A DNA stretch of 51,920 nt, from UHGV virus genome UHGV-0124386; one strand, 5' to 3'. The notes below the pieces were generated by a model. It made no database searches. It had not been told where the DNA came from and saw nothing but the letters and a program-made list of their open reading frames with translations. The translations under genes were made by a program, and so were the position numbers. Source of the DNA: a virus. How positions within the stretch are numbered: the first letter of the stretch is position 1; each line of letters begins with the position of its first letter. This document shows positions 5,120 to 43,130 of the stretch, piece after piece.

Positions 5120-6043
5120 TTATTGACAGCAAACAATCTCTTTATATGTTTCTTCTACCATGTCGAATACTTCCGGCCTGTAATAAAAAAATTCAGTGCT
5201 ACCATCAAACTTAACAGGGAAGTTTATTTTATAGTCACTGAAAGCATCGTGCATTTTGCTTTCTATTTCCTGCATAATCTCAGTAGGCCCATTCCATGTT
5301 TTAACTACCTGTAAATCAGTCAGCCTTACACCTGCCTTACGAGCACTTTTAAATACTCTGTTCCTCCTTTCGTTCTCTTTTACGCTTACACCAATTTTCA
5401 TTTGTGTAGGCACTTCAAGATCATCAACCATGATGTAAAGTTTTCCGTTGTAGTGTGATAAAAACCCGTATTTAGCGCATTTCGGGCAACCGCGCCCGCT
5501 CTTAATGTCTCTAGGTTTAGCCGACCACTCATGATCACAAACCTTGCAGCGGCATAATACTTTTGTACTGTTATTAACTATTTCAACCAGCACTTCAATA
5601 TCAGGATTAACCTTAGCAATAGCCGATATTTGTTCTTCATGCGATATTTTTTTGCCTTGCGCTCGTTTTAGCACCGCACATTTCTGGCAACCGCTCCCGA
5701 TCTTAAGGCTTTTAGGTGTAGAATACCACTCATGATCACAAACCTTGCAGCGGCATAATACTTTTATTTTGTCGCCGGTAATTTCCCCAAGCACTTCAAT
5801 ATCAGGATTAACCTTAGCAATAGCCGATATTTGTTCTTCATGCGATAACTTCATATTCCCAGCGCATTTCTGGCAACCACGTCCATATTTAATATTGCTA
5901 GGTGTAGCCGACCATTCATGGTTACAAACTTTGCAGCGACATAATACTTTTGTACTGTTATTAACAATTTCCCCTAACACTTCAACATCAGGATTAACTT
6001 TCGCGATAGCTGCAACTTGTTCTTCATGTGTTAACTTGCGCAT
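5120..6043 (-). CDS. protein with three tandem zinc-ribbon repeats and a C-terminal T5orf172 (GIY-YIG-like) domain (307 aa)
   Basis: Three ~60-aa repeats HEEQ.AAIAKVNPD.EVLGEI..KVLCRCKVC.HEW..P..K.G.GC.KC; C-terminal KIGVS...GSTEFF signature resembling T5orf172; strong SD AAGGAG. Confidence 0.6.
   Translation of the reverse strand: MRKLTHEEQVAAIAKVNPDVEVLGEIVNNSTKVLCRCKVCNHEWSATPSNIKYGRGCQKCAGNMKLSHEEQISAIAKVNPDIEVLGEITGDKIKVLCRCKVCDHEWYSTPKSLKIGSGCQKCAVLKRAQGKKISHEEQISAIAKVNPDIEVLVEIVNNSTKVLCRCKVCDHEWSAKPRDIKSGRGCPKCAKYGFLSHYNGKLYIMVDDLEVPTQMKIGVSVKENERRNRVFKSARKAGVRLTDLQVVKTWNGPTEIMQEIESKMHDAFSDYKINFPVKFDGSTEFFYYRPEVFDMVEETYKEIVCCQ
5476..6028. repeat. triplicated ~190-200 bp tandem repeat inside the zinc-ribbon/T5orf172 gene
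   Basis: Antisense ORFs 5544.. and 5745.. both begin MQRHNTF and a third copy follows; protein shows three near-identical modules; coordinates approximate. Confidence 0.7.
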
Positions 6044-8036: not shown

Positions 8037-8684
8037 ATGAAAACAAAATGGTATGACTTAGCAAAGCAGCTCATGCGGGCGCAGGGCATGAGCCAGGATT
8101 CGCTCGCGGATCGTATGGGGATAACTAAAGGCGGCCTGTCACACTGGCTGAACGGTCGCCGAGAGCCAAATCTTGAAGATATTGCGCGGATTATGCGCGA
8201 GCTTGGTCGTCGGCAGTTTACTGTTACACATGATGGCATGGTCATTGATGATTCTGTTTCTAATACACTTCAGGCCGTGCCGCCGCGTGATTTAGGTAGT
8301 TACCCGGTTATTGACTGGAAGGACACAGTAAACAATATGGATGACGCAAGGCGTTCAGCATTACGACACGTTACGACTAGCGTTATTTGTTCAGATGACA
8401 GTTACTGGCTGGTTGCCAAAGGTGAATCAATGAACGCGCCGCAGGGGTTGAGCATCCCGGCGGGGACGATGATACTTGTGGACCCGCACGCGCCAGCTAT
8501 TGACGGCAAACTGGTTATAGCCCAGCTTGAGGAAGGGCAGATACCGACGTTTAAACAGTTGATTATTGATGGAGGTCAAAGGCTTTTACGTTCGCTCAAT
8601 CCGCTGTATCCGCCAATCCCTATGAATCCAGAATCAAAAATTATAGGCGTGGTGGTTGATGCGAAGATCGTAAACCTGCCATAA
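8037..8684 (+). CDS. CI-like repressor, HTH (XRE) + S24 LexA-like peptidase domain (215 aa)
   Basis: N-terminal HTH (QDSLADRMGITKGGLSHWLNGRREP), C-terminal S24 signature GESMNAP with downstream Lys; followed by terminator. Confidence 0.85.
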   Translation: MKTKWYDLAKQLMRAQGMSQDSLADRMGITKGGLSHWLNGRREPNLEDIARIMRELGRRQFTVTHDGMVIDDSVSNTLQAVPPRDLGSYPVIDWKDTVNNMDDARRSALRHVTTSVICSDDSYWLVAKGESMNAPQGLSIPAGTMILVDPHAPAIDGKLVIAQLEEGQIPTFKQLIIDGGQRLLRSLNPLYPPIPMNPESKIIGVVVDAKIVNLP

Positions 8685-8715: not shown

Positions 8716-8807
8716 CCTGAAGAACACCAAAACGTAAACAGAAAACGTTACTTATTGTTTAAATATCAATAGCATATAAAATATTTTAAAAAAGTATACA
8801 AAATGGA

Positions 8808-16264: not shown

Positions 16265-16423
16265 AGTTTACAAAGTGGCATCATTGTGTGATGCGGATCA
16301 CATAATGGCGCTTTTTGTCTTGTTTGGGGGTATCCATTTTGTATACTTCAAGCAAACAAAATGCTCTTTAAAAATCCGGCAGCGCTGAAATGCGTAGAAA
16401 TCACCTGAAAAGGAGAGAGCATT

Positions 16424-37855: not shown

Positions 37856-40198
37856 ATGGCTACCAGTGTAGGCACAATTTATTACGAAGTTGACGCAAAA
37901 ACAGGACAACTTCTTGTAGCACAACGACAGGCAGACCAGGCCTTTGACCGTATAGAGCGCGGTGCTAAACAGGCCGATCGCCAGGTAAACACACTGAAAA
38001 CATCAATCAAAGCACTGACCAGGGTTATCCATCTGCTAATTGCTGCCGAGGCCGTTAGACAGTTTATGGAAATGGCAGAGCAGGCCAAAATGCTACGCGT
38101 CAAAATCAAAATGCTTACAGGCGACGCGGAATCTGCCGGGCGGGTTTTTGATGGTCTGAAAGAAATATCCAGGGAGACGGGGCAGAGCCTGAAAGATACT
38201 GGCGAATTATGGCAAGGCCTGGCTATCTCACTAAAAAACACCTCCGCTACGGAAGGGCAATTGCTTAACCTGGTTGGCACTATTCAGAAAATGGGTGCAT
38301 TAGGCGGCGCGTCAGCGGAACAGATGTCTAACTCAATGCGTCAATTCCGTCAGTCTATCGACGGCGGTGTTCTTCGTGCCGAAGAATTTAACAGCCTGCT
38401 TGAAAACACGCCGACCATCGTACAAACAATGGCCCGCCATATGGGATTATCAATGGGCCAGTTCCGCGCCGAAATGCTGGACGGCAAGATCACGGCTGAA
38501 AGGATGGTTAACGCAATACAGGCGGCTACGCAGGAAACAAACGATAAGTTTGCTCAGTTGCCGCGCACATCCGGCATGGCTATCAATGAGCTTAAAGTAG
38601 AAATTATGGGCCTTGTTGAGCAGTTGGATGATCTTTTTGGCGTGTCAGATGGCGTTGTTTCAGCTATCGACTTGATCACGAAAGGCGTTAAAGGGCTTGG
38701 CGATGGCGCTAAATTCGCTAAAACCTGCTTCGACACACTCAAAACGGCTGGTAGCGAATTTATCGACATGTTTGATGATGTGGCTGTTAAGGCTGGAGAG
38801 GTGGCAGAGAAGATCATCGCAATGGTGACGCCAATCAAGGCGCTAATGGATGGCTATAAATGGGTGAAGGAGGTAGTAGGAGAGCAAACCGACGAATATA
38901 ACAGCAACTACGAGAAGAAATACGGGAAGACCGTTGGCAAGGTCATGCAACTACAGGATGATCTGACCGCAGCAATCCAGGCTACAGAAGAAGCAAGGAA
39001 AAATGAACAGAATGCTGCCAATGACGGAGCGATTACCGGATTCGACAAGCCAGTAGACAAGCCGAAAAAACAGAAAAAAGAGAAGAAATCGGAAGCTGAT
39101 CGGCTTGGTGACAAAGGTATAAGCGTTTCTGATCAGTACAACAAAGACGCCGCCGCCATGCGCAAAGCGTTGGAGAACGGCAAGGCCATTGATGCTGCAT
39201 TTGCCCAGGGTAAAATCACGCTCCTTGAGTACCGCGCCGCGCAAAAAGGGATCGGCAAGGAACTGAAAGAAGAATTAGCGCAGATCCCGGTAGATGAACT
39301 GCGTGATAAATGGTCGCAAATAGTTAGCCCGATGGACCAGCTAAAAGGCGAGGTTGACCCCATCCAGCAGGCACAAAATGAATGGGCCGTCCGTAAGCAA
39401 ATGCTTATCGACCTGGGCGCTACAGAAGCACAACAGAAACAGGAATTGTTAGCCTATGAGCAGCAGATCCGCGATCTGAAATGGGAGCAGTGGCAGGCGC
39501 AAAGCGACACTAACGGCCTTATCGGTGATTGCGTTAATGGCCTTAAAGGTGGCATGAGCAATGCGCTTGTTGGCCTGCTTAACGGCACTCAATCATTGAG
39601 CGATGTTTTTGCTAACTTAGGGAGCAATATACTAGGGAACATCGGCAACAGGCTTTCTGACATAGCCGCCAACTGGATAGCAGATCAAATCATGATGGAG
39701 ACACAAAGCAAGGCAACGCAGGCCAGCACAACGGCAAGTGCGGTAGCCGCTCAGGGTAGCATCGCTGCGGCAGCGGCCCCGGCAGCGGCGGCAACAGCAG
39801 CATCAACTGGCGGTAGCTGGGCGGCGGCTGGCTCTGCGGCACTCACTGCGATCATGTCTCTGGCAACATCCATCTTCGGTGGCAGGCGCTTTAATGGTGG
39901 TAGCGTCATTGGTGGCAACTTGTACCGTGTCGGGGAAAACAACAGGACGGAGCTATTCCAGACGCCTAACGGGAATCAATATATGATTCCTGGCGAGAAC
40001 GGCAGAGTTATTCCGGGCCGTGATATTGGCGGCGGTGGCGGTATTAGTATGCCTGTCAGTATCAGCATTCAGACAACGAACGGATTCAGCGACGAAGACA
40101 GCCGCAGACTTGAACAGACAATGGAACGTGTAGCTATGAAGATGATAACAAGGGAATCTCAAAGACCGGGCGGAATGTTGCAACCGCGCCGCAAATAA
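37856..40198 (+). CDS. tail tape measure protein (780 aa)
   Basis: Length, coiled-coil-rich sequence, Gly-rich C-terminal region, position before M-L-K-I-J. Confidence 0.85.
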   Translation: MATSVGTIYYEVDAKTGQLLVAQRQADQAFDRIERGAKQADRQVNTLKTSIKALTRVIHLLIAAEAVRQFMEMAEQAKMLRVKIKMLTGDAESAGRVFDGLKEISRETGQSLKDTGELWQGLAISLKNTSATEGQLLNLVGTIQKMGALGGASAEQMSNSMRQFRQSIDGGVLRAEEFNSLLENTPTIVQTMARHMGLSMGQFRAEMLDGKITAERMVNAIQAATQETNDKFAQLPRTSGMAINELKVEIMGLVEQLDDLFGVSDGVVSAIDLITKGVKGLGDGAKFAKTCFDTLKTAGSEFIDMFDDVAVKAGEVAEKIIAMVTPIKALMDGYKWVKEVVGEQTDEYNSNYEKKYGKTVGKVMQLQDDLTAAIQATEEARKNEQNAANDGAITGFDKPVDKPKKQKKEKKSEADRLGDKGISVSDQYNKDAAAMRKALENGKAIDAAFAQGKITLLEYRAAQKGIGKELKEELAQIPVDELRDKWSQIVSPMDQLKGEVDPIQQAQNEWAVRKQMLIDLGATEAQQKQELLAYEQQIRDLKWEQWQAQSDTNGLIGDCVNGLKGGMSNALVGLLNGTQSLSDVFANLGSNILGNIGNRLSDIAANWIADQIMMETQSKATQASTTASAVAAQGSIAAAAAPAAAATAASTGGSWAAAGSAALTAIMSLATSIFGGRRFNGGSVIGGNLYRVGENNRTELFQTPNGNQYMIPGENGRVIPGRDIGGGGGISMPVSISIQTTNGFSDEDSRRLEQTMERVAMKMITRESQRPGGMLQPRRK

Positions 40199-40202
40199 CA
40201 CT

Positions 40203-40228
40203 AAGGCCACTTATAGTGGCCTTTTTCT
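40203..40228. terminator. terminator hairpin after tape measure gene (also at 3' end of antisense gene)
   Basis: AAGGCCAC-TTATA-GTGGCCTT followed by TTTCTT. Confidence 0.65.
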
Positions 40229-40410
40229 TAGTCTACCTCTTCGTTTTTAAACTCACCATCAACAAACTTTTGTAGTCCAGCAATAAGCTGTACAGCCTGC
40301 GACTTGTCAATCACGATGGTGTCAGTCCCCATAAGTTCGGTTATCCACAATACATCATTTTCAAGATCTAACCGGACACCATAACAACGTTTTGTTTCTT
40401 CAATAATCAC
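40228..40410 (-). CDS. hypothetical protein (60 aa), antisense island
   Basis: ORF track. Confidence 0.35.
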   Translation of the reverse strand: MIIEETKRCYGVRLDLENDVLWITELMGTDTIVIDKSQAVQLIAGLQKFVDGEFKNEEVD

Positions 40411-40520
40411 TTTTTTCTCCTACAGTCTGCCGTTACGTGCGATGTAACTCCTACTGGACATCACTAACCAGATGTTCCAGATCTCACGCCAGGTGAATTT
40501 ATCGTCCTTCATATCCCGAC

Positions 40521-40775
40521 TCACTTATGGCAACCGCGCACGCCAGATAATTCATTAAATTTATGATGTTCAACAATCACCCACTCCTTCAGATCCTGGC
40601 TATAGACTCGCCAGTCTAAATTGGCGCGGAAGGCGTAGCCGTAACCGTCTTTTAATTTTTTGGGCGACACATCCTTGTTTAAAAACGCGTTCAAAAGCTC
40701 CCTTGCTTTTTTAACTACACGTTCCGGCGCGTTTTTCTGTGCTTTCAGGTTTTTGTCAATCGCTACCAGTTTCAT
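40521..40775 (-). CDS. candidate RelE/YoeB-superfamily toxin-like protein (84 aa)
   Basis: Pattern ERVVKKARELLNAF...KKLKDGYGYAFRANLDWRVYSQDLKEWVIVEHHKF resembles RelE/YoeB toxins (KRIVKKINELIKD...HRLVY...); preceded by small ORF. Confidence 0.4.
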   Translation of the reverse strand: MKLVAIDKNLKAQKNAPERVVKKARELLNAFLNKDVSPKKLKDGYGYAFRANLDWRVYSQDLKEWVIVEHHKFNELSGVRGCHK

Positions 40776-40792
40776 AACTCACCCCATCATCC

Positions 40793-40948
40793 TTAGTTAA
40801 GTGCCTTCAGGAAGAAGTCCCGGTATTCATCTTCTTTCGCATTCATCATGAATTGACCGTATTTGAATGCGTCGTCGAAACCCTTAACGATTGCTATTTC
40901 CACTTGTTCGAATGCGTTATTTAGCATTACTACTACATAGCGTTTCAT
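40793..40948 (-). CDS. small protein (51 aa) upstream of toxin-like gene; candidate antitoxin
   Basis: Hand-translated MKRYVVVMLNNAFEQVEIAIVKGFDDAFKYGQFMMNAKEDEYRDFFLKALN; excellent SD AGGAGG 8 nt upstream; 17-bp gap to toxin-like gene. Confidence 0.35.
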   Translation of the reverse strand: MKRYVVVMLNNAFEQVEIAIVKGFDDAFKYGQFMMNAKEDEYRDFFLKALN

Positions 40949-41115
40949 TTTGGGCCTCCTTCGTTGGTACTGCTTTCTTCTTGCTTTCTATATACATCTT
41001 GTTGCATGCTACGTGAAGCCATTTTGTAAACTAGCTATAATCATTGTGACAAAGATCTCATTTTTCGCGTAGAAGCGCGTAAAGATATATACAAAATGTA
41101 ACTTGTGGGGGTTTT

Positions 41116-41469
41116 ATGCCGGAAGTGTTCAGATGGACGCCGCAAAGAAGCTACAGCGTGACCAGGGAACCAAACGTATCTGTCATTAAACTTGGTGATG
41201 GGTATGAACAACGCCAGGCGAAAGGGATTAACACATTACTTGATAGTTACACCCTGGTTTTTAAAGGCAGTAGTGCAGGATGCGGCGATGGTGGGAATGT
41301 AGCGATCCAGGCGGAAGCATTCTTGAGGGCGCGTGGCGCTGTCGAGGCTTTTTACTGGTCGCCGTCGATGGATAACGTGCAAAGGCTTTTTGTTTGCCGT
41401 AGCTGGAGCATGACTAAAGACGGTCCGCTATACACGCTAAATGCAACATTTGAGCAAGTTATTAATTAG
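41116..41469 (+). CDS. M: minor tail protein M (lambda gpM-like, 117 aa)
   Basis: Aligns with recalled lambda M (FRW, GDGY.QR...G.N, C..WS, EFEQV(I/V)N C-terminus). Confidence 0.8.
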   Translation: MPEVFRWTPQRSYSVTREPNVSVIKLGDGYEQRQAKGINTLLDSYTLVFKGSSAGCGDGGNVAIQAEAFLRARGAVEAFYWSPSMDNVQRLFVCRSWSMTKDGPLYTLNATFEQVIN

Positions 41470-41480
41470 AGGGAGGGGAT

Positions 41481-41663
41481 ATGCCTTATTTTTGTGTAGT
41501 GGAGCGCACTGGCGCTTTTACATTGTTCGCCGACTATGAAATTAATGATCTTACTGTCCGGGCTGATAATGGCGAGACGTGGTATCTTCATGATATGGGT
41601 GATGGATATATCGGCTGTACGACTTGGGATGGCAAAGAAGTAGCATTTCTATCCTACGATTAA
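41481..41663 (+). CDS. small hypothetical protein (60 aa) between M and L
   Basis: ORF track; followed by terminator. Confidence 0.35.
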   Translation: MPYFCVVERTGAFTLFADYEINDLTVRADNGETWYLHDMGDGYIGCTTWDGKEVAFLSYD

Positions 41664-41670
41664 AAAAACA

Positions 41671-41691
41671 CCCCGCCACGGCGGGGTTTAT
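41671..41691 (+). terminator. rho-independent terminator
   Basis: CCCCGC-CACG-GCGGGG followed by TTTAT. Confidence 0.6.
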
Positions 41692-41763
41692 AGTGTCGAT
41701 AGCAGAATGCATGACAATCCAATAATGATAATGATCATTTCCAGAACGTAATGTTCGCACATC

Positions 41764-42475
41764 TCATAACGCCCCCTTCAAATATGTCAATCCCTTATCA
41801 GTGACGAATGAGTGATTAACCTGGTTTTCATCCGTCATGATGATAAATAACTTTTCCTGTAGGTATTTCGCTTTAGGGTACAGCGTTAAGCAGACCTGGT
41901 ACAGTATCCCGCGCTCAATCAGCAAATCAATAAATTCGTGTTCATGATAACCGATAAGGCGGGCGGCCTGTTTCAACGTGTATACATAATCACTGTGATT
42001 GCGCCGCGCCATGTTCTTTATAGTACCCTCCGATTTCGTGCGCTTCTTTTGAGGCGTTACACGCATCAAGGTAGCTATTAAAACACCCTATATGCCGATA
42101 CACCCCACTAATCATCACTCTTACAATCCATTTTTTATTCGCTTCATTCCACCATACGCCAATGCACCCGCTCTTATTCCTTCTGGATAACGGCATATTT
42201 TTCATGTTTTCTTGTTTTGTTATCATTCTTAGATTTTATATTCTGTTATCACTCCTTATATGGTTTATATGGTCAATCACATACCCTTCTGGGATCGGGC
42301 CGTTGTGCATTTCCCAAATTATGTTGTGTGCCTTATACTTTTTATTTTGCACACAGATAACAATATACCCGTTGTGCAAACTTCCGGCTTCCTTGCCGTT
42401 GGTAATTCTACCGCTTGTTGGTATCTTCCAGAATAATTTCCCTTCATTATAAGTAAAGATGTTGTACCATTTCAT
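41764..42475 (-). pseudogene. disrupted HNH-AP2 homing endonuclease (HNH_3 domain, AP2 domain, C-terminal HTH region split into three ORFs)
   Basis: ORF 42236..42475 carries the HNH_3 core (HNGYIVICVQNKKYKAHNIIWEMHNGPIPEGYVIDHINHIRSDNRI) and stops at an in-frame TAA where the family motif DNRIENLR has Glu; ORF 41990..42226 continues NLR-MITKQENMKN and has the AP2 pattern (SGCIGVWWNEANKKWIVRV...GCFNSYLDACNASKEA); ORF 41764..42069 is frameshifted relative to it. Confidence 0.6.
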
Positions 42476-42480
42476 AATTT

Positions 42481-42885
42481 TTAATCAAAGCAACTTAAAT
42501 TGTCGATACAGAAATCTTTTGCCGCTTTTTCGTATTCGCGTTTTGCATCAGGATCATCAGCCGGGAAACCCTTTGCGTGTATTTCACCAGGGCAAGACTG
42601 ATCCATAGAGTCAGCAAAATTAACATTGACGTTAAAGTTAATATCTTTCGGGTTCATATCTTCCACCTTCTCATCTATTTGTACCTGAGTTATTTTGAAT
42701 TCCCTGGCGCGCCCGAAGAAGCGAACAAGTTTTTCTCCTTCCTCGACTGCCATTTCGTAACTGTCATATAATCCGTAACCTTCCCAATCTTTACTGCCTG
42801 CCATCCATACATCTAGACGGTATTTTTGCATTTTACTGATCCCCGCTTTTAATCGGTTTAATCCGGTAGCCCAGGACGCGATCAT
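42481..42885 (-). CDS. hypothetical protein (up to 134 aa; likely start at MQKYRL)
   Basis: ORF track. Confidence 0.35.
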   Translation of the reverse strand: MIASWATGLNRLKAGISKMQKYRLDVWMAGSKDWEGYGLYDSYEMAVEEGEKLVRFFGRAREFKITQVQIDEKVEDMNPKDINFNVNVNFADSMDQSCPGEIHAKGFPADDPDAKREYEKAAKDFCIDNLSCFD

Positions 42886-43039
42886 CTTTTTCTGATAGGT
42901 AAATGGACGTTTCTAAGGCGTCGCTAGGGTTATCGAATTCAGCCTCGATATCACGCCCGTTACTCACAAATAAGGTCAGTCTCCATAGTTTATCGTTCAT
43001 CCCGCGCCCTTTGTGCCATTTTGTTAACTTCCCCTTCAT
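42833..43039 (-). CDS. hypothetical protein (68 aa)
   Basis: ORF track. Confidence 0.3.
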   Translation of the reverse strand: MKGKLTKWHKGRGMNDKLWRLTLFVSNGRDIEAEFDNPSDALETSIYLSEKDDRVLGYRIKPIKSGDQ

Positions 43040-43130
43040 TTGAGTAAAATATACATATTGTAAAAACCTCGATCAATCCATTTTGGTATGATTTAGCGTG
43101 ACGCAGATCACAAAATGACAAGGTGAGAAA

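What the first reader, a model, noticed from the sequence alone, without database searches (positions are those of the whole stretch)
40228..40948. Antisense three-gene island between tape measure and tail protein M carrying a candidate RelE/YoeB-like toxin module
Three minus-strand genes interrupt the plus-strand tail operon: a 51-aa protein with a near-consensus SD, followed 17 bp later by an 84-aa protein whose sequence (ERVVKKARELLNAF...GYGYAFRANLDWRVYSQDLKEWVIVEHHKF) resembles RelE/YoeB-superfamily mRNA-interferase toxins, then a 60-aa protein. The small-upstream/larger-downstream order with tight spacing is the classic type II antitoxin-toxin arrangement, though the 51-aa protein matches no antitoxin family I recognise. 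The island is bracketed by terminator hairpins and followed by motif copies before gene M.
Basis: partly seen in the sequence, partly recalled or inferred. Interest (0 to 1): 0.65.

Follow-up and report, generated by a model that had tools for sequence, protein, structure and literature searches.

The report
RelE-fold cassette inside phage tail operon
A small backwards-facing gene cassette between two tail genes of a temperate E. coli phage encodes a protein with the fold of RelE/ParE toxins, but its supposed antitoxin is missing from some otherwise normal relatives, so it is probably not a classic toxin-antitoxin pair.

Summary

The toxin-antitoxin reading is not. The conserved unit is the 51-aa + 84-aa pair. 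The 30-aa and 60-aa genes are variable cargo, and 14 relatives have the pair alone. The 51-aa protein matches no antitoxin family and does not co-vary with the 84-aa protein. It is cleanly absent from two diverged group members (E. coli UMNK88 prophage and one IMG/VR contig), which keep an intact, constrained 84-aa gene behind the same promoter. PF24732 relatives sit in virulent jumbo, T7-like and siphophage genomes and in plasmid-like contigs. None has this partner or any recognisable antitoxin.

The island promoter is built like the phage's PR-like early promoter. My best reading, with much of it inferred, is an antitoxin-independent RelE-fold effector comparable to T4 RegB. The 51-aa protein would be a lineage-specific accessory. 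Function is untested. RefSeq already names the 84-aa protein "ParE family toxin-like protein". Interest is moderate.

The parts
41019..41030 (-). TTTACAAAATGG motif directly upstream of the island promoter
   Evidence: 10 copies in the window against 0.58 expected. It sits in the same position relative to the -35 as at the PR-like promoter at 8795 and at the island-2 promoter. It is conserved in 35 distinct relatives.
40989..41017 (-). Putative sigma-70 promoter of the island: -35 TTCACG (41017-41012), 17-nt spacer, -10 TATATA (40994-40989)
   Evidence: The -35 and -10 blocks are conserved and the spacer is variable across 35 distinct sequences. The geometry matches TATACAAAATGG-A-TTGACT-17-TATATT at 8795. 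It falls below the threshold of the consensus scan, so it is inferred and not demonstrated.
40793..40948 (-). 51-aa gene (phrog_29810; equivalent to mEp021_68), pI 5.1; lineage-specific partner of unknown fold
   Evidence: Identity is at least 76% across 57 protein clusters, and dN/dS is 0.04. No Pfam, NCBIfam, PADLOC or PDB match. Absent from UMNK88/L068 and L067.
40521..40775 (-). 84-aa gene (equivalent to mEp021_67): RelE/ParE-superfamily fold, Pfam PF24732, pI 9.8
   Evidence: dN/dS is 0.07. Intact in 47 of 48 parsed loci.
40420..40512 (-). 30-aa ORF (34 aa from GTG 40524, overlapping the 84-aa stop codon); variable cargo
   Evidence: Annotated as a 93-nt CDS in MagusPhagus, mEp554, mEp515 and mEp010. 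Absent from loci that contain only the pair.
40228..40410 (-). 60-aa gene (phrog_13627, unknown function, pI 4.3); variable cargo
   Evidence: Present in only a subset of loci, and replaced by other genes (Zn-ribbon, HNH) in others.
40203..40223 (.). Bidirectional intrinsic-terminator hairpin shared by the tape measure gene and the island
   Evidence: -14.0 and -13.5 kcal/mol, z -3.6 and -3.8.
41036..41093 (+). Plus-strand elements ahead of gene M: invariant TATAAT (41036-41041) and a 34-nt repeat/hairpin (41060-41093). These belong to the tail operon, not the island.

Best explanation
The conserved feature is a two-gene cassette (51 aa + 84 aa) with its own promoter and terminator, set antisense between the tape measure and tail M genes of mEpimmI-group temperate coliphages. 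Extra small genes (30 aa and 60 aa here) ride along as variable cargo. The 84-aa product is a strongly basic RelE/ParE-superfamily protein of family PF24732. By fold it is closest to the ribosome-dependent mRNA endonucleases YoeB, YafQ, HigB and RelE. I propose that it works as an antitoxin-independent phage effector acting on mRNA or the ribosome, as T4 RegB does. It would be switched on from a promoter built like the phage's PR-like early promoter. It would be shut off when late transcription reads through the cassette from the opposite direction. The 51-aa protein would be a lineage-specific accessory or modulator rather than an obligate antitoxin. Shown: the fold and family, the cassette architecture, the promoter resemblance, the dispensability of the 51-aa gene, and the family's distribution. 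Inferred: RNase activity, early timing, antisense shut-off, and the role of the 51-aa protein.
Confidence: 0.38

Rival explanations
1. Type II toxin-antitoxin module. The 51-aa protein binds and neutralises the 84-aa RelE/ParE-fold toxin. The pair stabilises the prophage or aborts infection by other phages.
For: There is a small upstream gene and a larger downstream RelE/ParE-fold gene 17 nt apart, each with its own SD. The pair is kept together in about 50 loci. One partner is acidic (pI 5.1) and the other basic (pI 9.8). Occasional frameshifted 84-aa alleles occur with an intact 51-aa gene (L043, P0012, P0013, P0073). Small antitoxins without a DNA-binding domain exist: PaaA2 of the prophage paaR2-paaA2-parE2 system, whose ParE2 is among the fold hits (the biology is from my own knowledge).
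Against: Two diverged phages keep an intact, constrained 84-aa gene behind the same promoter with no 51-aa gene, and one of them is in a cultured, fully sequenced strain. The 51-aa protein matches no antitoxin family. It is more conserved than the 'toxin' and does not co-vary with it. No family member elsewhere has this or any recognisable antitoxin, including those in virulent phages where addiction makes no sense. PADLOC finds nothing. The promoter resembles phage early promoters rather than a palindrome-bearing autoregulated TA promoter.
Confidence: 0.22
2. Lysogen-expressed defence moron. The cassette is transcribed from the prophage and protects the host against other phages by exclusion or abortive infection. 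The RelE-fold protein is kept harmless by low expression or by needing a trigger.
For: The cassette has its own promoter and terminator, is antisense to the late operon, and sits in a hotspot where cargo genes (HNH, Zn-ribbon, small ORFs) come and go. Tail-region morons of lambdoid phages often encode exclusion functions (my own knowledge: HK97 gp15, cor). A second such island lies between M and L.
Against: The 84-aa gene was found in every group member examined, whereas defence morons are normally accessory. The family is common in virulent phages. PADLOC gives no hit. The published exclusion functions of this phage group are lipoproteins encoded elsewhere (PMC11893012).
Confidence: 0.15
3. 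Non-catalytic use of the fold. The 84-aa protein has lost nuclease or gyrase-poison activity. It acts as a binder, for example an anti-defence decoy that sequesters host antitoxins or other factors, or a ribosome-binding regulator.
For: The distribution in phage early regions and plasmid-like contigs fits functions needed at cell entry. YoeB's Glu46 position is Lys. There is no antitoxin in most contexts. Helix alpha1 of the canonical fold is replaced by a beta-hairpin.
Against: Invariant basic and His residues (K40, R56, H70) in the places where RelE-type active sites lie look like an active site rather than a passive surface. No known anti-defence protein with this fold was found.
Confidence: 0.15
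4. Conserved tail-assembly accessory factors.
For: The position inside the tail gene cluster, and presence in all group members.
Against: The cassette is on the opposite strand with its own promoter and terminator. Family relatives lie far from tail genes in unrelated phages and plasmid-like contigs. The paper's text does not mention these genes and neither accession appears in its held supplements (PMC11893012).
Confidence: 0.02

Closest known systems
RelE/YoeB/YafQ/HigB ribosome-dependent mRNA interferase toxins (type II TA)
   Different: No match to their Pfam families. Helix alpha1 is replaced by a beta-hairpin. The YoeB Glu46 position is Lys. There is no YefM/RelB/DinJ/HigA-type partner, and the upstream gene is dispensable.
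ParE gyrase-poison toxins, including prophage paaR2-paaA2-parE2
   Different: ParE chains score lower than the RNase members. The protein is shorter than typical ParE. There is no ParD/PaaA2-like partner by sequence. Whether it touches gyrase is untested.
Phage T4 RegB
   Same: A phage-encoded early-gene endoribonuclease with a RelE/YoeB-like fold and no known antitoxin (PMC3014915). This is the functional model I favour for a solo RelE-fold protein in phages.
Lambdoid 'morons' in tail regions (lom, bor, HK97 gp15, cor)
   Same: An independently transcribed unit with its own promoter and terminator, inserted between conserved late genes, at a spot where gene content varies.
   Different: The 51+84 core is close to universal in the phage group rather than accessory. 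Its promoter resembles the phage's own early promoter.

Membership tests
Pfam PF24732 (ParE_like toxin domain) | Score above the curated gathering threshold of the family HMM | tested here: met
   34.0 bits against 24.4, E 3e-8, covering 66 of 67 profile positions. All 25 aligned relatives match it.
RelE/ParE superfamily | Compact alpha/beta fold: a helix packed on a 3-4-stranded antiparallel sheet, with a short C-terminal helix | tested here: met
Classical RelE, ParE, YoeB, YafQ, HigB families | Match to the family's sequence profile | tested here: not met
   No Pfam hit other than PF24732 at E <= 1 for any of 25 members. No NCBIfam hit. No PDB sequence hit with the single sequence or the profile.
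RelE-type mRNA interferases | Catalytic constellation (RelE K52/K54/R61/R81/Y87; YoeB E46/R65/H83/Y84) | tested here: inconclusive
   R56 aligns with YoeB R65 but K39 aligns with E46 (YoeB sequence recalled from memory). K40, R56 and H70 are conserved family-wide.
ParE gyrase poisons | Inhibition of DNA gyrase | not testable with these tools
Type II toxin-antitoxin system | A cognate antitoxin gene always accompanies the toxin gene | tested here: not met
   UMNK88/L068 and L067 have an intact 84-aa gene, the same promoter and no 51-aa gene. No shared partner exists in other family contexts.
Type II toxin-antitoxin system | The partner belongs to a known antitoxin or DNA-binding family (RHH, HTH, Phd/YefM, AbrB and others) | tested here: not met
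   The 51-aa protein matches only phrog_29810 (unknown function). Nothing in Pfam, NCBIfam, PADLOC or PDB sequences.
Type II toxin-antitoxin system | Toxicity of the toxin alone, neutralised by direct binding of the antitoxin | not testable with these tools
   This requires expression and pull-down experiments. A co-fold could not be run.
Type II toxin-antitoxin system | Autoregulated promoter with a palindromic operator | tested here: inconclusive
   No palindrome overlaps the putative -35 or -10. The promoter shares an asymmetric upstream motif with the phage's PR-like promoter.
Moron (independent transcription unit in a late operon) | Own promoter and terminator; present in some relatives and absent from others | tested here: inconclusive
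   The terminator is present and a promoter is inferred. The downstream cargo is variable, but the 84-aa gene is in every member examined.
Known anti-phage defence systems (PADLOC-DB 2.0) | Match to a defence-system protein model | tested here: not met
   No hit at E <= 1 for any of the island's proteins.

The most novel reading that the evidence does not exclude
PF24732 is a family of antitoxin-independent RelE-fold effectors that phages and plasmids deploy in the first minutes after entering a cell, for host takeover or anti-defence. The mEpimmI temperate phages would have wired one to an early-type promoter and placed it antisense inside the tail operon, so that late transcription automatically silences it. 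The 51-aa protein would be a new kind of small modulator of such an effector.
Probability: 0.3. Interest if true: 0.65.

Novelty: new variant of a known kind. Interest (0 to 1): 0.42.

Why it matters
RelE/ParE-fold proteins are nearly always read as toxins of addiction or defence modules. Here a whole family of them (PF24732, which RefSeq already labels 'ParE family toxin-like') sits mostly without any antitoxin. It occurs in virulent jumbo, T7-like and siphophage genomes and in plasmid-like contigs. In one temperate phage group it sits in a conserved antisense cassette whose small partner can be lost. If the protein is an active, antitoxin-free mRNA interferase used by the phage itself, it would extend the T4 RegB precedent to a broad family. 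It would also caution against automatic 'toxin-antitoxin' annotation. If it is an ordinary TA pair after all, the 51-aa protein would be a new, very small antitoxin type. Both outcomes can be tested with simple expression experiments in E. coli K-12 using mEp021, which is in culture.

Tried and rejected
(1) The first AF2 model, built from 11 close homologues (pLDDT 62), gave meaningless Foldseek hits. I replaced it with a 25-sequence alignment. (2) phmmer and hmmsearch of the 84-aa protein and of the family profile against PDB sequences found only noise. (3) hhalign of the family against E. coli YoeB (sequence recalled from memory) was marginal at E 0.067. (4) The whole-library profile search found only 12 representatives with E <= 1e-3, so the family is small at that depth. 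(5) The 51-aa protein as a paralogue of the first gene of the second antisense island: hhalign probability 0.1, rejected, though both alignments have very low diversity. (6) The 30/34-aa ORF overlapping the 84-aa stop codon as a downstream (HigA-style) antitoxin: rejected, because it is absent from the 14 loci that contain only the pair. (7) An upstream 25-codon 'leader' ORF ending in ATGA at the 51-aa start: rejected as coding, because relatives place it in all three frames. (8) Rfam found nothing above threshold in 39800-43300. (9) Literature searches for PF24732 and DUF5417 returned no papers. The mEpimmI paper does not discuss these genes. (10) search for related loci with the family alignment failed for lack of a conserved stretch. 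(11) The exact-match survey through the 5' end of the 84-aa gene was too strict to give a frequency: 5 viral and 2 metagenome loci.

Full report
**1. What is there**

The window is a temperate coliphage of the mEp021 (mEpimmI) group. The region 39900-41500 matches phage MagusPhagus at 94.7% and mEp021, mEp515, mEp554, mEp013, mEp010 and mEp044 at 81-88%.

Four minus-strand ORFs lie between the tape measure gene (37856..40198, +) and tail protein M (41116..41469, +; PF05939, E 3e-28):
- 40793..40948: 51 aa, with SD AAGGAGG 6 nt upstream of the ATG.
- 40521..40775: 84 aa, starting 17 nt after the 51-aa stop codon.
- 40420..40512: 30 aa from ATG, or 34 aa from a GTG that overlaps the 84-aa stop codon. 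Relatives annotate this ORF.
- 40228..40410: 60 aa, GTG start.

A strong bidirectional hairpin at 40203-40223 (-14 kcal/mol, z -3.6) separates the island from the tape measure gene. There is no terminator on the M side.

**2. The conserved unit is the pair, not the island**

I retrieved 42 IMG/VR loci through the 51-aa protein, five GenBank phages and two metagenome contigs. In every one of them an 84-aa gene follows the 51-aa gene by 17-21 nt. It is intact in 47 of 48 parsed loci. L043 has a 1-nt deletion in an A-run.

Both genes are under strong purifying selection: median dN/dS is 0.04 for the 51-aa gene and 0.07 for the 84-aa gene.

What follows the pair varies:
- In 14 loci nothing follows, with 86-137 bp to the tape measure stop codon.
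- Other loci carry the 30-aa and about 60-aa ORFs, a Zn-ribbon protein (mEp021), an HNH endonuclease (mEp515) or other small ORFs.

The 60-aa gene is therefore cargo at a hotspot and not part of a three-gene module.

**3. The 84-aa protein**

- Pfam: it passes the gathering threshold for PF24732 'ParE_like toxin domain' (34 bits against 24.4, E 3e-8) and matches nothing else. All 25 relatives I aligned match only PF24732.
- Other libraries: NCBIfam and PADLOC give nothing. PHROGs gives phrog_1525, function unknown.
- Structure: a model from 11 close homologues was poor (pLDDT 62). After widening the alignment with distant members, the model reached pLDDT 85 and pTM 0.71, with the order beta-beta-helix(18-32)-beta-beta-beta-helix(70-77).
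- Foldseek: S. aureus YoeB ranks first (probability 0.96, E 0.06).

The scores are modest but very consistent, so the fold assignment is sound and leans towards the RNase branch.

The family-wide invariant residues are K40, L41 and R56. K23, H70 and N74 are nearly invariant. An hhalign against E. coli YoeB (sequence recalled from memory, E 0.067) aligns helix RVVKKARELL with RIVKKINELI, R56 with catalytic R65, and K39 with catalytic E46. The protein is strongly basic, with pI 9.8. An RNase-type active site is plausible but not shown.

**4. The 51-aa protein**

It matches only phrog_29810 (unknown function). It has no hit in Pfam, NCBIfam, PADLOC or PDB sequences. It is confined to this phage group and very conserved, at 76% identity or more across 57 clusters. 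It is mildly acidic, with pI 5.1.

Identical 51-aa sequences are paired with 84-aa proteins of 61%, 68%, 94% and 100% identity to the window's. The two main 51-aa types each occur with both 84-aa types. So there is no co-variation, and the putative antitoxin is the slower-evolving partner. That is the reverse of what is usual in TA pairs.

**5. A natural 'toxin-only' genotype**

In the E. coli UMNK88 prophage the same intergenic region runs directly into an intact 84-aa gene with its own SD. That region carries the motif TTTTCAAAATGG, -35 TTCACT, a 17-nt spacer and -10 TATACA. The 84-aa ATG lies 167 nt from the tail M ATG, and no 51-aa gene is present. UMNK88 is one of the 48 genomes of the published mEpimmI set (PMC11893012).

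Two IMG/VR contigs have the same architecture:
- L068 is identical to UMNK88.
- L067 is a different phage, with 18 differences in the 170 nt upstream. Its 84-aa gene differs from UMNK88's at 10 positions, 8 of them synonymous.

The 84-aa gene thus persists under constraint without the 51-aa gene, and all family-invariant residues are kept.

Among 5,426 complete E. coli genomes, 33 carry the region, always as one chromosomal copy. Only UMNK88 has the 51-less form.

This is hard to reconcile with an obligate antitoxin, unless the promoter is silent in lysogens.

**6. Family context elsewhere**

PF24732 relatives occur in the following settings:
- Rak2-like jumbo virulent phages (121Q, PBECO4, K64-1, RaK2), in or near the terminal repeats and among arrays of small genes. 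Some annotators call the gene 'YafQ-like ribonuclease toxin'.
- Directly upstream of the RNA polymerase gene of a T7-like phage.
- Siphophages of about 41 kb such as Sortsne and IME_EC2.
- Overlapping by 4 nt the end of a ParB-HTH protein, in the HK97-like phage OS31 (annotated 'HigB-like protein') and in an Enterobacter island.
- Overlapping the end of a 497-aa DUF5417 protein on plasmid-like contigs.
- Next to parA on another contig.

None of ten neighbouring proteins has a known antitoxin domain. A family this common in virulent phages, and without a shared partner, does not behave like a classical TA toxin. T4 RegB is an early-gene endoribonuclease with a RelE/YoeB-like fold and no known antitoxin, and it provides a precedent (PMC3014915).

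**7. Regulation**

The 167-nt region between the 51-aa gene and M is more conserved than the neighbouring coding sequence in 35 distinct relatives.

On the minus strand it reads TTTACAAAATGG-C-TTCACG-17 nt-TATATA (41030-40989). The hexamers are conserved and the spacer is variable. Two other promoters have the same layout:
- TATACAAAATGG-A-TTGACT-17-TATATT at 8795. This lies just downstream of the CI-like repressor gene (8037..8684; HTH_3 + Peptidase_S24) and upstream of the rightward early genes.
- ACCAAAATGG-A-TTGATC-17-TATATT at 43085-43048, ahead of the second antisense island.

TTTACAAAATGG occurs 10 times in the window against 0.58 expected. So both antisense islands seem to be tied into the phage's own promoter system.

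Because the cassette is convergent with the late operon, late transcription from the tape measure gene towards M must cross it. This would interfere with it and make antisense RNA. A built-in shut-off of this kind is an inference, not an observation. I could not establish who binds the motif or whether the promoter is active in lysogens.

**8. Conclusion**

- The RelE/ParE-fold call is right. The TA-module interpretation is at best unproven, and several independent observations count against it.
- My preferred explanation (confidence about 0.38) is an antitoxin-independent RelE-fold effector of the phage, with the 51-aa protein as a lineage-specific accessory.
- A genuine but unusual TA pair remains possible (about 0.22). 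A lysogen-expressed defence moron and a non-catalytic use of the fold are each at about 0.15. A tail-assembly role is very unlikely.
- The protein family is already catalogued (Pfam PF24732; RefSeq 'ParE family toxin-like protein'), but I found no experimental work on it.
- The finding is of moderate interest, and simple experiments in a cultured phage would resolve it.

Noticed in passing
window 3967, 6163, 7952, 8795, 13916, 16267, 21691 (+); 16334, 41019, 43016 (-); also 43073-43085 (-): The asymmetric motif TTTACAAAATGG occurs 10 times (at most 1 mismatch) against 0.58 expected. At 8795, 41030 and 43085 it abuts the -35 of promoters with the same layout (motif, 1 nt, -35, 17 nt, TATAT[TA]). 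It may be a proximal UP-like element or the site of a phage regulator. The binding factor is unknown.
   Followed up: partly
window 28934-28967 and 41060-41093 (+): A 34-nt repeat (85% identical) containing TTTTTCGCGTAG..CGCGTAAA lies just upstream of the portal gene and of tail gene M. The plus-strand RNA hairpin folds at -9.3 kcal/mol (z -2.3). Relatives show no compensatory changes, so it could equally be a DNA site (TACGCG-N4-TACGCG). An invariant plus-strand TATAAT (41036-41041) lies 20 nt upstream of the M copy.
   Followed up: partly
window 16285-16307, 43095-43117, 50445-50467: Three copies of a CRP-like palindrome (TGTGA-N6-TCACA). One is flanked by inverted TTTACAAAATGG copies upstream of the NinG-like gene, and one lies just upstream of tail gene L.
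   Followed up: no
window 41764-43039 (-): A second antisense island lies between the small ORF after tail M (41481..41663) and tail L. It has a 55/68-aa leader gene, a 116/134-aa protein with no family, and a KilAC-type antirepressor-like protein. It also has what looks like an HNH-AP2 homing endonuclease split into two ORFs (HNH_3 fragment 42236..42475 plus an AP2-like 41990..42226). It has its own promoter (43076-43048) and terminator (41670-41687).
   Followed up: partly
L043 (IMGVR_UViG_3300045988_049781), codon 8 of the 84-aa gene; protein clusters P0012, P0013, P0073: Occasional frameshifted alleles of the 84-aa gene occur in A-runs, with the 51-aa gene intact. These are either sequencing errors or sporadic inactivation.
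   Followed up: partly
window 40728-40775 (first 16 codons of the 84-aa gene): The N-terminal 16 codons are nearly invariant at the protein level and show about half the synonymous divergence of the rest of the gene (mean dS 0.47 against 1.11). Nucleotide similarity to several relatives breaks off just downstream. This is either a recombination boundary or an overlapping signal.
   Followed up: partly
window 40949-41022 (-): An ORF starting at the motif's ATG (41022) runs 25 codons and ends in an ATGA that overlaps the 51-aa start codon. In relatives, 1- or 2-nt indels shift it into the other frames, which produces the 68- and 76-aa gene calls in databases. It is not conserved as coding sequence.
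   Followed up: yes
L010 4001-4252, L056 2501-2752; L006 4001-4213, L063 1483-1701: Distant PF24732 members recur as the downstream, 4-nt-overlapping partner of a 497-aa DUF5417 protein on plasmid-like contigs, and of ParB-HTH proteins in an Enterobacter island and in the HK97-like phage OS31. These gene pairs appear to be undescribed.
   Followed up: partly
window 5474-6033 and 48080-48924: Three 173-nt direct repeats lie inside the minus-strand ORF 5120..6043. Five 59-nt repeats with 108-nt periodicity lie inside the 1656-aa tail fibre (J-like) gene.
   Followed up: no
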